NCBI RefSeq assembly: GCF_024502345.1
Contig: NZ_JALDNN010000001.1
DNA length: 64,000 nucleotides
From: Escherichia coli
GTDB lineage: Bacteria; Pseudomonadota; Gammaproteobacteria; Enterobacterales; Enterobacteriaceae
Reading direction: 5' to 3' (one strand)
The position numbers and the translations under genes were made by a program. The notes beneath the pieces are model-generated. The model worked only from the letters and a program-made list of their open reading frames with translations, searched no databases and had not been told where the DNA came from. Shown piece by piece: positions 6,081 to 44,044 of the stretch (position 1 is its first letter; every line of letters starts with the position of its first letter).

Positions 6081-6113
6081 CGGATCATAGTCACATCAAG
6101 TGACTATGATCCG
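6081..6113 (-). terminator. Perfect 14-bp stem / 5-nt loop hairpin just downstream of hdeD (candidate hdeD terminator or binding site)
   Basis: cggatcatagtcac-atcaa-gtgactatgatccg read directly from the sequence; lies 18 bp past the hdeD stop codon. Confidence 0.5.
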
Positions 6114-9015: not shown

Positions 9016-9170
9016 AACCGACTCCTGGTGCGGACATTAACTTTATAATCAGTTTGCCAAAGGTAATTAACAGGACAGGGCTTATAATAATAATAGTTAG
9101 CTTACTGTATATTAATTTTATGTAATACATGATGCAGATGCTGAGAAAGCATCTGCATCTTTCGGTGGTG

Positions 9171-14119: not shown

Positions 14120-14205
14120 CGTAAAAAAACCGACTTTGCGTCGGTTTTTTACTTTCCAGCCCAGAGTTGGTGGCTCTGGCTGGAGTGAGAATGCCCACAT
14201 CTAAC
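14120..14205 (-). ncRNA. agrB: agrB-like small antisense RNA (repeat copy nearest arsR)
   Basis: Block shared with the dinQ leader (ctggctggagtgagaatgcc...) on the opposite strand to dinQ; putative -35 ttgcaa / -10 tagtat on the minus strand; hairpin plus U-run at 14123..14150. Ends approximate; agrA/agrB naming from recollection of K-12 order. Confidence 0.55.
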
Positions 14206-14351: not shown

Positions 14352-14442
14352 GATGTAAAAAAACCGACTTCGCGTCGGTTTTTTTACTGTTCAGCCCTGA
14401 GTTGGTGGCTCTGGCTGGAGTGAGAATGCCATCATCTAACGC
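14352..14442 (-). ncRNA. agrA: agrA-like small antisense RNA (repeat copy nearest dinQ)
   Basis: Second copy of the same repeat with its own putative -35 ttgcaa / -10 tagcat and terminator hairpin at 14355..14385; ends approximate. Confidence 0.55.
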
Positions 14443-14797: not shown

Positions 14798-14850
14798 TAG
14801 CGGAAACGTAATTAAGGGCTAAGAGCACACTACTCTTAGCCCTTTAACAT

Positions 14851-20122: not shown

Positions 20123-20170
20123 AAGTAAAGCAGGGTAGCGATAACGCTACCCTGCTTTCTGCAAGAATAA

Positions 20171-36710: not shown

Positions 36711-37834
36711 TGCGCCATTTACGCAATATTTTTAATCTGGGTATCAAAGAGTTGCGCAGTCTACTCGGTGATAAAGCGATGCTGACATTGATTGTCTTCT
36801 CGTTTACGGTGTCGGTGTATTCGTCAGCGACCGTGACGCCAGGATCGTTAAACCTCGCGCCGATCGCCATTGCCGATATGGATCAATCGCAGTTATCGAA
36901 CCGGATCGTTAACAGCTTCTATCGCCCGTGGTTTTTGCCACCGGAGATGATCACCGCCGATGAGATGGATGCCGGACTGGACGCCGGGCGTTATACCTTT
37001 GCGATAAATATTCCGCCTAATTTTCAGCGTGATGTCCTCGCCGGACGCCAGCCGGATATTCAGGTGAACGTCGATGCCACGCGCATGAGCCAGGCATTTA
37101 CCGGCAATGGGTATATCCAGAATATTATCAACGGTGAAGTGAACAGCTTTGTCGCGCGCTACCGTGATAATAGCGAGCCGTTGGTATCGCTGGAAACCCG
37201 GATGCGCTTTAACCCGAACCTCGATCCCGCGTGGTTTGGCGGGGTGATGGCGATCATCAACAACATTACTATGCTGGCGATTGTATTGACCGGATCGGCG
37301 CTGATCCGCGAGCGTGAACACGGCACGGTGGAACACTTACTGGTGATGCCGATAACGCCGTTTGAGATCATGATGGCGAAGGTCTGGTCGATGGGGCTAG
37401 TGGTGCTGGTGGTATCGGGATTATCGCTGGTGCTGATGGTGAAAGGCGTGCTGGGCGTACCGATTGAAGGCTCGATCCCGCTGTTTATGCTGGGCGTGGC
37501 GCTCAGTCTGTTTGCCACCACGTCAATCGGCATTTTTATGGGGACGATAGCGCGTTCAATGCCGCAACTGGGGCTGCTGGTGATTCTGGTGCTGCTGCCA
37601 CTGCAAATGCTTTCCGGTGGATCCACGCCGCGCGAAAGTATGCCGCAGATGGTGCAGGACATTATGCTGACCATGCCGACGACACACTTTGTTAGCCTCG
37701 CGCAGGCCATTCTCTACCGGGGTGCCGGATTCGAAATCGTCTGGCCGCAGTTCCTGACGCTGATGGCAATTGGCGGCGCGTTTTTCACCATTGCGCTGCT
37801 GCGATTCAGGAAGACGATTGGGACAATGGCGTAA
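36710..37834 (+). CDS. yhhJ: ABC-2 family transporter permease YhhJ, about 374 aa
   Basis: ORF 36626..37834; tandem ATGATG at 36707..36712 overlapping the rbbA stop; conserved N-terminus [19 protein letters not shown]. Confidence 0.9.
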   Translation: MRHLRNIFNLGIKELRSLLGDKAMLTLIVFSFTVSVYSSATVTPGSLNLAPIAIADMDQSQLSNRIVNSFYRPWFLPPEMITADEMDAGLDAGRYTFAINIPPNFQRDVLAGRQPDIQVNVDATRMSQAFTGNGYIQNIINGEVNSFVARYRDNSEPLVSLETRMRFNPNLDPAWFGGVMAIINNITMLAIVLTGSALIREREHGTVEHLLVMPITPFEIMMAKVWSMGLVVLVVSGLSLVLMVKGVLGVPIEGSIPLFMLGVALSLFATTSIGIFMGTIARSMPQLGLLVILVLLPLQMLSGGSTPRESMPQMVQDIMLTMPTTHFVSLAQAILYRGAGFEIVWPQFLTLMAIGGAFFTIALLRFRKTIGTMA

Positions 37835-37842
37835 GGAAGGGA

Positions 37843-37900
37843 ACTTGACTTCATACTGTGATGTCATACTATTGATGTCATAAAGTGAAGTCATAAGGAC
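37843..37900 (+). promoter_or_regulatory. Candidate promoter/operator upstream of the hicA-like gene
   Basis: Inverted repeat tgacttca (37846..37853) / tgaagtca (37886..37893) bracketing tandem gtcata repeats; aagga RBS before ATG 37906. Confidence 0.45.
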
Positions 37901-37905
37901 ATGCC

Positions 37906-38181
37906 ATGAGAACCAAGGTACAGGCTTTACGGAAGAAACAAAAAAATACATTGGATCAAATATTTAAAACTCCTGTTCCTCAAGGGATCAAGTGGTCTGA
38001 TATAGAGTCACTGGTTAAAGCATTAGGCGGAGAAATTAAGGAAGGAAGAGGTTCGCGTTGTAAGTTCATACTAAATATGAGCGTTGCGTGTTTCCATCGG
38101 CCTCATCCGTCGCCAGATACCGATAAAGGCGCTGTAGAAAGCGTGCGTGACTGGTTACTAAGTATAGGGGTAAAACCATGA
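37906..38181 (+). CDS. HicA-like (YcfA family) type II toxin, putative mRNA interferase, 91 aa
   Basis: Small ORF with HicA-like pattern (KWSDIESLVKALGGEIKEGRGSRCKF...FHRPHP...KGAVESVRDWLLSIG); 4-bp ATGA overlap with the downstream antitoxin-like ORF. Confidence 0.7.
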   Translation: MRTKVQALRKKQKNTLDQIFKTPVPQGIKWSDIESLVKALGGEIKEGRGSRCKFILNMSVACFHRPHPSPDTDKGAVESVRDWLLSIGVKP

Positions 38182-38537
38182 TCAAACTGAAGACGCCAAA
38201 CTCTATGGAGATTGCCGGGCAACCTGCTGTTATCACTTACGTGCCAGAACTGAATGCATTTCGTGGCAAATTCCTGGGCTTGTCAGGTTATTGTGATTTT
38301 GTCTCTGACAGCATTCAGGGGCTGCAAAAAGAAGGGGAACTTTCCCTGCGAGAGTATCTTGAGGATTGTAAAGCTGCGGGTATTGAGCCGTATGCGCGTA
38401 CAGAAAAGATTAAGACCTTTACGTTACGCTATCCAGAATCGCTGAGTGAACGCCTTAATAATGCGGCTGCGCAGCAACAAGTCTCTGTTAATACCTATAT
38501 TATTGAAACACTGAATGAGCGTTTGAATCATTTATAA
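38178..38537 (+). CDS. HicB-like type II antitoxin with C-terminal ribbon-helix-helix DNA-binding tail, 119 aa
   Basis: N-terminal HicB-like fold signature (YxGxxxxxxELNAFRGKFLGLSGYCDFVSDSIQGL...EYLEDCKAAGIEP) and C-terminal RHH-like segment (FTLRYPESLSERLNNAAAQQQVSVNTYIIETLNERL). Confidence 0.75.
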   Translation: MIKLKTPNSMEIAGQPAVITYVPELNAFRGKFLGLSGYCDFVSDSIQGLQKEGELSLREYLEDCKAAGIEPYARTEKIKTFTLRYPESLSERLNNAAAQQQVSVNTYIIETLNERLNHL

Positions 38538-38591
38538 ATTTTAGCGGCGTACATTACGCAGAATATCTGCCTTTACAGGATCTATCTATGC

Positions 38592-38624
38592 AACTGAACT
38601 TAATTTTATAAATTAAGTTCAGTT
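38592..38624. terminator. Perfect 15-bp inverted repeat with 3-nt spacer (candidate hicAB terminator or recombination/binding site)
   Basis: aactgaacttaattt-tat-aaattaagttcagtt read directly; T-rich tract follows on the plus strand. Confidence 0.5.
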
Positions 38625-38656
38625 AATATCTTTTCTTTCCTCGTTTTAGAAATAAC

Positions 38657-41460
<2,804 letters not shown>

Positions 41461-44016: not shown

Positions 44017-44044
44017 GTATGACGATTTTAAGTATTCGTCATAC
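44017..44044. promoter_or_regulatory. NikR operator in the nikA promoter (GTATGA-N16-TCATAC)
   Basis: gtatgacgattttaagtattcgtcatac located 38 bp upstream of the nikA start codon; matches the known NikR dyad. Confidence 0.85.

What the first reader, a model, noticed from the sequence alone, without database searches (positions are those of the whole stretch)
38592..38624. Perfect 15-bp inverted repeat at the junction between the hicAB-like islet and nikR
aactgaacttaattt-tat-aaattaagttcagtt is a perfect AT-rich palindrome between the convergent hicB-like and nikR genes. It may be a terminator for the TA operon, but perfect long palindromes at variable-region boundaries can also be recombination or protein-binding sites.
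Basis: seen in the sequence. Interest (0 to 1): 0.3.

Follow-up and report, generated by a model that had tools for sequence, protein, structure and literature searches.

The report
AT-rich hairpin between hicB and nikR
A real, perfect 33-base palindrome sits in the gap between a toxin-antitoxin operon (hicAB) and the nickel regulator gene nikR in about a quarter of E. coli strains; it is most likely an ordinary RNA stem-loop marking the ends of the two converging transcripts, not a recombination site.

Summary
38592-38606 and 38610-38624 are perfectly complementary 15-nt arms around a 3-nt loop. This is the longest perfect hairpin repeat in the window and beyond chance.

The window is E. coli: yhhJ, hicA, hicB, a 119-bp spacer, then nikR on the opposite strand. 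The palindrome is single-copy. It occurs in 1,490 of 5,426 complete E. coli genomes, always at this locus and always in the hicAB-only allele. It is absent from:
- empty-site alleles;
- rhsB (K-12) alleles;
- hicAB plus sugar-PTS-island alleles, which have a canonical GC-rich terminator after hicB instead;
- Klebsiella, Enterobacter and Citrobacter, where hicAB also abuts nikR. hicAB is therefore ancestral here, not a recent islet.

No allele breakpoint coincides with the palindrome. It has no partner copy, no Rfam match, no HicB-operator or NikR-box motif, and no occurrence in other contexts.

The arms showed no change where sequences were read; the surrounding spacer carries 10-13 variable sites (p about 0.01-0.04). 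IS1 has inserted into it at two sites.

Best reading (confidence about 0.5): a 3'-UTR RNA stem-loop (-14.5 kcal/mol), acting as a weak, non-canonical terminator for hicAB and a 3'-end barrier for both transcripts. Low interest.

The parts
38592..38606 (.). Left arm of the palindrome (AACTGAACTTAATTT)
   Evidence: Unchanged in all 37 spacer sequences read. The 49-bp region around it is identical or has one mismatch in all 1,490 genomes.
38607..38609 (.). 3-nt loop (TAT on +, ATA on -)
38610..38624 (.). Right arm of the palindrome (AAATTAAGTTCAGTT). Contains the IS1 target AATTAAGTT (38611-38619) that is duplicated in strain G3/10.
38625..38640 (+). T-rich tail on the hicAB strand (AATATCTTTTCTTTCC). 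This is the only U-rich side of the hairpin, and the U run starts 6 nt after the stem.
   Evidence: flags a terminator-like site on the + strand only. T-tail score 0.92 on + and 0.24 on -.
38549..38650 (.). Spacer segment specific to the E. coli hicAB-only allele. It carries the palindrome and resembles neither the PTS-island allele, the rhsB allele, nor the spacers of other genera.
   Evidence: Breakpoints. BLAST of the spacer against the other alleles found nothing longer than 15 bp. Present in 1,490 of 5,426 genomes.
38538..38548 (+). ATTTTAGCGGC: homologous to the start of the left arm of the canonical terminator that follows hicB in the O157-type allele (CTTATAGCGGCC...). It looks like a truncated remnant.
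   Evidence: Metagenome haplotype L051 reads CTTATAGCGGC here.
38178..38537 (+). hicB antitoxin gene (119 aa), the last gene of the + strand operon whose 3' UTR contains the palindrome
   Evidence: Pfam PF05534; RefSeq WP_000593555.1.
37906..38181 (+). hicA toxin gene (91 aa)
   Evidence: Pfam PF07927.
38657..39058 (-). nikR, convergent with hicB. On its strand the palindrome starts 33 nt after the stop codon.
   Evidence: Pfam NikR_C + RHH_1; RefSeq WP_001190062.1.
37846..37898 (+). Four 13-bp tandem repeats with TGAnnTCA cores overlapping the promoter-like site of hicA. This is the probable HicB operator; the palindrome is not a copy of it.
   Evidence: The repeat PWM scores 16-18 bits here and at most 7.8 bits in the palindrome.

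Best explanation
The palindrome is transcribed from both sides and folds as a 15-bp A/U-rich RNA stem-loop in two 3' untranslated regions. One belongs to the hicAB mRNA (+ strand), where the stem starts 55 nt after the hicB stop. The other belongs to the nikR / nikABCDE-nikR mRNA (- strand), where it starts 33 nt after the nikR stop.

On the hicAB strand a U-rich stretch follows (AAUAUCUUUUCUUUCC), so the stem-loop probably acts as a weak, non-canonical intrinsic terminator. On both strands it would also block 3'-to-5' exonucleases. That would fix and stabilise the transcript 3' ends and limit read-through into the opposing gene.

It belongs to a 102-bp spacer segment (38549-38650) peculiar to the E. 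coli 'hicAB-only' allele of the multi-allelic yhhJ-nikR locus. It stands where other alleles have a different hairpin or none.

Shown: the structure, its non-random nature, its allele-specific single-copy distribution and its conservation. Inferred: transcription through it, RNA folding in vivo, and the effects on termination and stability.
For: - It lies in the gap between two convergent genes.
- The hairpin appears in both the MFE and the centroid folds on both strands. The stem-loop alone is -14.5 kcal/mol. Context z-scores are -4.3 (+ strand) and -3.2 to -3.9 (- strand).
- The consensus scan calls it terminator-like on the + strand only.
- It is strictly linked to hicAB. It occurs in 1,490 genomes, and 1,489 genomes carry the full yhhJ-hicAB-spacer-nikR stretch. 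No genome lacking hicAB has it intact.
- In the roughly 580 hicAB genomes without it, a canonical GC-rich terminator with a T tail follows hicB (-19.4 kcal/mol, tail TTTTTG). The window keeps only 11 bases of that terminator's left arm. A hairpin therefore fills the same functional slot in both alleles.
- Other alleles also carry a hairpin without a U tail just after nikR: the K-12/rhsB allele (-16 kcal/mol), the CFT073 allele, and a REP-like one in Enterobacter.
- Across 8 spacer haplotypes, all 10-13 segregating sites fall outside the 33 bp (p 0.036-0.012). The common C38591T variant lengthens the stem to 16 bp.
- Established knowledge, recalled and not tested here: many E. coli 3' ends produced by Rho-dependent termination are trimmed back to a protective stem-loop that lacks a U tract.
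Against: - It is a poor intrinsic terminator by the usual criteria. Only 3 of 15 pairs are G-C, and the first 8 nt after the stem are AAUAUCUU. There is no U tract on the nikR strand (tail GCAUAGAUAGAUCC).
- It is dispensable. Klebsiella has a 27-bp hicB-nikR spacer without it, and empty-site E. coli has 8 bp between yhhJ and nikR.
- No transcript data were available.
- The polymorphism deficit is only nominally significant. It rests on 8 haplotypes of closely related sequences.
Confidence: 0.5

Rival explanations
1. It is a neutral by-product with no function. The 102-bp segment is a leftover from an old rearrangement at this hypervariable locus. The palindrome arose by a local inverted duplication, or was perfected by intrastrand template switching (quasipalindrome correction). 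It looks conserved only because the allele is young and the sequences are closely related.
For: - The locus is highly rearranged, with at least four alleles.
- The spacer has no homologue outside E. coli.
- Both flanking operons work without it in other alleles and genera.
- The evidence for constraint is weak (p about 0.01-0.04 from 8 haplotypes).
- It is a poor canonical terminator.
Against: - The arms are unchanged in all 37 sequences read, including deep E. coli lineages (E69, L040) that differ at 4-5 of the other 88 spacer positions.
- Template switching alone would allow symmetric double changes, and none is seen.
- It sits exactly where a transcript-end hairpin is expected.
Confidence: 0.3
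2. It is a DNA-level site: a symmetric binding site for a dimeric protein (a regulator or a nucleoid protein such as H-NS), or a hairpin/cruciform recombination site that promotes exchange of the variable cassette between yhhJ and nikR.
For: - It has perfect two-fold symmetry over 33 bp and lies inside a variable segment.
- IS1 has used it as a target at two different positions in three genomes: a 9-bp duplication AATTAAGTT in G3/10, and junctions at 38610|38611 and 38596|38597.
- The centre, TTTATAAATT, resembles the AT-rich motifs that H-NS prefers. This resemblance is recalled, not tested.
Against: - No allele breakpoint coincides with it. They lie at 37834|37835, 38548|38549 and 38650-38659.
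- There is no second copy at the other end of the segment, elsewhere in the window, or in any E. coli genome.
- It was not found in other contexts in viral or metagenome contigs.
- No recombinase gene lies among the adjacent genes (yhhJ, hicA, hicB, nikR, nikE).
- It is not a copy of the hicA-promoter repeats, and it has no NikR box.
- IS1's known preference for AT-rich DNA explains the insertions.
- Convergent transcription puts positive supercoiling here, which disfavours cruciform extrusion.
Confidence: 0.12
3. It is the terminator hairpin of a small RNA of about 100 nt (roughly 38538-38640, + strand). The sRNA would either start at a promoter-like site in the hicB 3' end or be processed from the hicAB 3' UTR. 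The stem-loop plus U-rich tail would serve as an Hfq-type 3' module.
For: - A promoter-like site (TTGAAA-17-AATCAT) ends at 38531.
- A hairpin followed by a U-rich tail exists on the + strand only.
- The segment is allele-specific and conserved.
Against: - The promoter match is only 9/12, and such matches are as frequent in shuffles (3 found against 1.8 expected).
- There is no Rfam match, even at E-value 1.
- The common C38591T variant and several other substitutions fall in the would-be sRNA body.
- There are no expression data.
Confidence: 0.06

Closest known systems
Rho-independent (intrinsic) terminators, including bidirectional ones between convergent genes
   Same: It is a stem-loop placed shortly after stop codons in a convergent gap. 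It has a U-rich stretch on one strand and a hairpin energy of -14.5 kcal/mol, which is in the usual range.
   Different: The stem is unusually long (15 bp) and A/U-rich (3 G-C pairs). The U run starts 6 nt after the stem. There is no U tract at all on the nikR strand. The sister allele shows what a canonical terminator looks like at this locus: ATAGCGGCC...GCGCCGCTAT followed by ATTTTT.
3'-end protective stem-loops of Rho-terminated or processed mRNAs (the role also ascribed to REP elements)
   Same: It is a stable hairpin without an adjacent U tract in a 3' UTR, able to block 3'-to-5' exonucleases. Other alleles of this locus have functionally analogous hairpins after nikR, including REP-like ones in Enterobacter and Citrobacter.
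   Different: It is single-copy and AT-rich. It does not have the G+C-rich REP consensus and is not a member of a dispersed family.
Terminal inverted repeats or hairpin recombination sites of mobile elements (MITEs, IS ends, attC-like sites)
   Same: It is a palindromic sequence inside a strain-variable segment.
   Different: There is no partner copy and no flanking target duplication. It is not at the segment ends, no recombinase gene is adjacent, and it is not dispersed. It is a target of IS1, not part of an element.

Membership tests
Intrinsic (Rho-independent) terminator | Stable RNA stem-loop downstream of a stop codon | tested here: met
   15-bp stem with a 3-nt loop, -14.5 kcal/mol. The stem starts 55 nt after the hicB stop and 33 nt after the nikR stop.
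Intrinsic (Rho-independent) terminator | G+C-rich stem | tested here: not met
   3 G-C pairs out of 15; 18% G+C overall.
Intrinsic (Rho-independent) terminator | U tract of about 7-9 nt immediately 3' of the stem | tested here: inconclusive
   + strand: AAUAUCUUUUCUUUC (9 U in 15, but only 4 in the first 8; T-tail score 0.92, against 3.8-4.1 for the O157-type terminator). - strand: GCAUAGAUAGAUCCU (0.24), which does not meet the criterion.
Intrinsic (Rho-independent) terminator | Transcript 3' ends map to the tail; read-through drops | not testable with these tools
   No transcript data were available. This needs Term-seq, 3' RACE or reporter assays.
REP/BIME and other dispersed intergenic repeats (ERIC/IRU, BoxC, RSA) | Many copies per genome sharing a consensus | tested here: not met
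   One locus per genome in 1,490 genomes and none in the other 3,930. The 'second places' reported are the palindrome matching itself on the other strand.
MITE / IS terminal inverted repeat | A partner repeat at the other end of the element, flanked by a target-site duplication | tested here: not met
   No copy at the left end of the variable segment or elsewhere. Only a 6-bp TTTTAG recurs, at 38539 and 38644, and no terminal inverted repeats lie inside it (read).
HicB operator | Match to the repeated TGAnnTCA-type motif of the hicA promoter | tested here: not met
   The PWM built from the four promoter repeats scores 16-18 bits at 37846-37897 and at most 7.8 bits in the palindrome. 83 window positions score as well or better.
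NikR operator | GTATGA-N16-TCATAC | tested here: not met
   The only match in the window is at 44017, upstream of nikA.
Any curated RNA family (Rfam 15) | Covariance-model match | tested here: not met
   No match at E-value up to 1 in 37000-39500 on either strand.

The most novel reading that the evidence does not exclude
The AT-rich perfect palindrome acts at the DNA level. It would be a structure-prone or bent site that attracts IS1 (and perhaps a nucleoid protein such as H-NS). By doing so it would drive deletions and cassette turnover at the yhhJ-nikR hypervariable locus, rather than serving transcription.
Probability: 0.1. Interest if true: 0.4.

Novelty: new member of a known kind. Interest (0 to 1): 0.15.

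Why it matters
It matters little beyond annotation. It adds one lineage-specific, non-canonical 3'-end hairpin to E. coli. It also corrects the picture of the locus: hicAB next to nikR is ancestral in Enterobacteriaceae, and the yhhJ-nikR gap is a multi-allelic site (empty, hicAB, hicAB plus PTS island, rhsB). Each allele brings its own transcript-end hairpin. If the hairpin proved to terminate or stabilise despite its A/U-rich stem, it would be a useful natural test case for terminator-prediction rules. Strain G3/10 offers a ready-made natural disruption mutant.

Tried and rejected
- **Dispersed repeat or mobile-element end.** Rejected. The 15-mer has no other copy in the window. There is none elsewhere in 5,426 E. 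coli genomes, none in viral contigs and none in metagenome contigs in another context. That metagenome pattern required a pyrimidine after the palindrome, so about a quarter of possible contexts were not sampled. Plasmid and phage collections gave nothing beyond chromosomes mislabelled as plasmids.
- **Scar of the PTS-island or rhsB alleles.** Rejected. BLAST of the spacer against those alleles gives no match longer than 15 bp. Only the first 11 bases after the hicB stop are shared with the O157-type terminator.
- **HicB operator copy or NikR box.** Rejected by the PWM and pattern scans.
- **Known RNA family.** No Rfam match.
- **7-codon mini-ORF** (ATG 38588 to TAA 38611, preceded by AGGA). 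Rejected, because the common C38591T variant (135 genomes) turns codon 2 into a stop.
- **13-bp identity between spacer 38555-38567 and nikR 38947-38959.** Judged to be chance (E about 0.09 within the window).
- **d'Aubenton-Carafa d-score.** I computed it from constants recalled from memory. It came out negative even for obvious terminators in the window, so I did not use it. Only the tail composition is cited.
- **Fixed-length hairpin finder.** The finder tried only fixed lengths and missed the 33-nt palindrome itself. Only its results for the other loci are used.
- **'90-95% identity' records.** The three such records disappeared at a stricter E-value. They are not palindrome variants.

Full report
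**Observation**

The sequence at 38592-38624 reads AACTGAACTTAATTT-TAT-AAATTAAGTTCAGTT. The repeat finder gives arms 38592-38606 and 38610-38624: 15 nt, 100% complementary, 3 nt apart. The 15-mer occurs twice in the window, once per strand, against 0.12 expected from shuffles. A scan of my own shows it is the longest perfect short-loop inverted repeat in the 64 kb. None of 100 first-order Markov simulations reached 15-bp arms.

**Setting**

The window is Escherichia coli. The genes are:
- yhhJ, + strand, ending at 37834;
- hicA, 37906-38181, + strand;
- hicB, 38178-38537, + strand;
- a 119-bp spacer, 38538-38656;
- nikR, 38657-39058, - strand, followed by nikEDCB on the same strand.

Pfam confirms HicA_toxin, HicB, and NikR_C with RHH_1. 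RefSeq annotation of near-identical genomes agrees. On the hicAB strand the palindrome starts 55 nt after the hicB stop. On the nikR strand it starts 33 nt after the nikR stop.

**Distribution within E. coli**

The search covered 5,426 complete genomes.
- The yhhJ-hicAB-spacer-nikR stretch is present at 80% coverage or more in 1,489 genomes.
- The 119-bp spacer is present in 1,490 genomes, and the 49 bp centred on the palindrome in 1,490.
- It is always chromosomal and always at this one locus. The 'second place' per genome is the palindrome matching itself on the other strand, and it disappears at a stricter E-value.
- hicAB itself is in 2,073 genomes, so about 580 genomes carry hicAB without the palindrome.

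The locus has at least four alleles:
1. Empty: 8 bp between the yhhJ and nikR stop codons (L001).
2. hicAB-only, with the palindrome. This is the allele in the window.
3. hicAB followed by a sugar PTS / aldolase / kinase island, seen in an O157:H7 strain (L002). The nikR-proximal end of the same island is seen in CFT073 (L004), where hicAB was not checked.
4. The rhsB element of K-12-type strains (L003). The nikR-yhhJ gap is a catalogued rhs locus (PMC2935791).

**hicAB is not a recent islet**

hicAB lies next to nikR, in the same convergent arrangement, in several other genera:
- Klebsiella aerogenes and K. pneumoniae and an uncultured Klebsiella (L014);
- Enterobacter sp. (L015);
- Citrobacter sedlakii, which also has yhhJ on the other side (L034).

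The pair is therefore ancestral at this position, and its absence in some E. coli is a loss or a replacement.

The spacer, in contrast, is not conserved between genera:
- Klebsiella: 27 bp with no hairpin.
- Enterobacter and C. sedlakii: REP-like G+C-rich hairpins.
- O157-type E. coli: a textbook terminator starting 3 nt after the hicB stop (TATAGCGGCCCAACAATTTCTGTTGCGCCGCTATA followed by TTTTTG; -19.4 kcal/mol).

The window shares only the first 11 bases of that terminator (ATTTTAGCGGC against CTTATAGCGGC). One metagenome haplotype even reads CTTATAGCGGC there. The allele-specific segment is therefore about 38549-38650. It resembles neither the island nor the rhsB allele. It was found in no plasmid or phage record apart from two E. 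coli chromosomes filed as plasmids.

**Is it a boundary or recombination site?**

The allele breakpoints are:
- 37834|37835, directly after the yhhJ stop;
- 38548|38549, against the island allele;
- 38650|38651, against the rhsB allele;
- about 38656-38659, against the empty and CFT073-type alleles.

None touches the palindrome, which lies 43 bp and at least 26 bp inside them. There is no partner copy at the other end of the segment. No recombinase gene lies among the adjacent genes. The palindrome was not found in other contexts in viral contigs or metagenome contigs. The metagenome pattern was designed to exclude the E. coli context, so it would miss about a quarter of other contexts.

The one sign of DNA-level activity is IS1:
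- Strain G3/10 has a simple IS1 insertion in the right arm, with a 9-bp duplication AATTAAGTT (38611-38619).
- Strain A30 has the same right junction plus a leftward deletion reaching the DNA just downstream of yhiN.
- Strain GDSC2227PM has a different junction (38596|38597) and a different deletion endpoint.

That makes two insertion sites in 33 bp. No further junctions were found in either search. IS1 is known to favour AT-rich targets, so I read this as a consequence of base composition, not as a dedicated site.

**Is it a protein-binding site?**

The hicA promoter region carries four 13-bp tandem repeats with TGAnnTCA cores (37846-37898). These overlap a promoter-like site (TTGACT-16-TACTAT) and are the probable HicB operator. 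A PWM built from them scores 16-18 bits there and at most 7.8 bits in the palindrome; 83 window positions score as well or better. The NikR box GTATGA-N16-TCATAC occurs only at 44017, upstream of nikA. Neither neighbouring ribbon-helix-helix protein has an evident site in the palindrome. Binding by some other protein cannot be excluded with these tools.

**RNA-level reading**

- The hairpin dominates the predicted folds of the spacer on both strands. The stem-loop alone is -14.5 kcal/mol. Context z-scores are -4.3 (+ strand) and -3.2 to -3.9 (- strand).
- Only the + strand has a U-rich sequence after it (AAUAUCUUUUCUUUCC). The consensus scan flags a terminator-like site on + only.
- It is a weak candidate by the usual rules. 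It has 3 G-C pairs of 15, and only 4 U in the first 8 nt. The T-tail score is 0.92, against 3.8-4.1 for the O157-type and Enterobacter hairpins. On the nikR strand the tail is GCAUAGAUAGAUCC (0.24).
- Other alleles also put a hairpin without a U tail just after nikR: the K-12/rhsB allele (-16 kcal/mol), CFT073, and Enterobacter.
- From general knowledge, recalled and not tested here, this pattern fits 3' ends that are made by Rho-dependent termination or processing and then trimmed back to a protective stem-loop.

**Conservation**

I compared 37 spacer sequences: the window, genomes, and 31 metagenome contigs retrieved with anchors in hicB and nikR. They form 8 haplotypes with 10-13 segregating sites. 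All of these sites lie outside the 33 bp (hypergeometric p = 0.036 to 0.012).

Across the 1,490 genomes, the 49-bp region is either identical to the window or carries a single mismatch, the latter in 135 genomes. In the five such sequences read (three genomes, a MAG and one metagenome contig) the mismatch is C38591T. This change lies just outside the arms and extends the stem to 16 bp.

This hints at constraint. It rests on few, closely related haplotypes, so it is not decisive.

**Conclusion**

The palindrome is real, non-random, single-copy and allele-specific.
- **Best supported (about 0.5):** an RNA stem-loop shared by the 3' UTRs of the two convergent transcripts. It would be a weak, non-canonical terminator for hicAB and a 3'-end barrier for both, occupying the slot that a canonical terminator or REP-like hairpins fill in other alleles and genera.
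- **Neutral relic of a rearrangement, perhaps perfected by template switching (about 0.3).**
- **DNA-level binding or recombination site (about 0.12).**
- **sRNA terminator (about 0.06).**

It is a new member of a known kind and of low general interest.

Noticed in passing
window 37846-37898: There are four tandem 13-bp repeats (TGACTTCATACTG / TGATGTCATACTA / TGATGTCATAAAG / TGAAGTCATAAGG) with TGAnnTCA cores. They overlap the hicA promoter-like site and are probably the HicB operator. The copy number varies: strain SCU-152 (L007) lacks one unit through a 14-bp deletion and has a shorter annotated HicA (231 bp).
   Followed up: partly
L008 about 520-545 (strain OkiPb01683), corresponding to window about 37900-37915: A 13-bp unit spanning the hicA start codon (read as CATGCCATGAGAA or ACATGCCATGAGA, depending on phase) is tandemly triplicated. 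This adds about 27 bp and creates extra in-phase ATGs.
   Followed up: no
window 37835-38656 and loci L001-L004: The yhhJ-nikR gap is a multi-allelic site whose variable DNA starts directly at both stop codons. The alleles are: empty (8 bp), hicAB-only, hicAB plus a PTS/aldolase/FGGY-kinase/GntR island, and rhsB. Even the nikR stop codon differs between alleles (TGA in the window and K-12 type; TAA in the empty and CFT073 types).
   Followed up: partly
L009, L010, L014, L015, L034: hicAB-nikR synteny is conserved in Klebsiella, Enterobacter and Citrobacter sedlakii. This hicAB is therefore an old resident of the nik locus, not a recent E. coli acquisition. In K. pneumoniae (L010) only hicB is annotated.
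   Followed up: partly
L071 1760-2540; L005 about 1735-2500; L070 about 1744-2500: IS1 has inserted into the palindrome at two different positions. G3/10 has a simple insertion with the 9-bp duplication AATTAAGTT. A30 and GDSC2227PM have IS1-adjacent deletions that removed rbbA-yhhJ-hicAB and more.
   Followed up: yes
window 38588-38611: A 7-codon mini-ORF (ATG CAA CTG AAC TTA ATT TTA TAA) sits 7 nt after an AGGA and runs through the left arm into the loop. The common C38591T variant makes codon 2 a stop, so it is probably meaningless.
   Followed up: partly
window 38555-38567 and 38947-38959: There is an exact 13-bp identity (TACGCAGAATATC) between the spacer and the nikR coding sequence, on the same strand. 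E is about 0.09 within the window, so it is probably chance.
   Followed up: no
window 44017: A perfect NikR operator, GTATGA-N16-TCATAC, lies upstream of nikA. This is the known nik promoter site.
   Followed up: no
window 6081-6113, 14355-14387, 20127-20158, 9131-9159, 14814-14844: There are other perfect 12-14-bp hairpin palindromes in the window. Most are G+C-richer. Two (14124-14150 and 14355-14387) share the core AAAAAACCGAC...GTCGGTTTTTT, typical of bidirectional terminators.
   Followed up: no
L009 about 2160-2185 (Klebsiella hicB 3' end): A perfect 12-bp hairpin (TTGAGACGCTCA-ATG-TGAACGTCTCAA type) lies inside the last codons of Klebsiella hicB, just before the 27-bp spacer. It could serve as the transcript-end hairpin there.
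   Followed up: no
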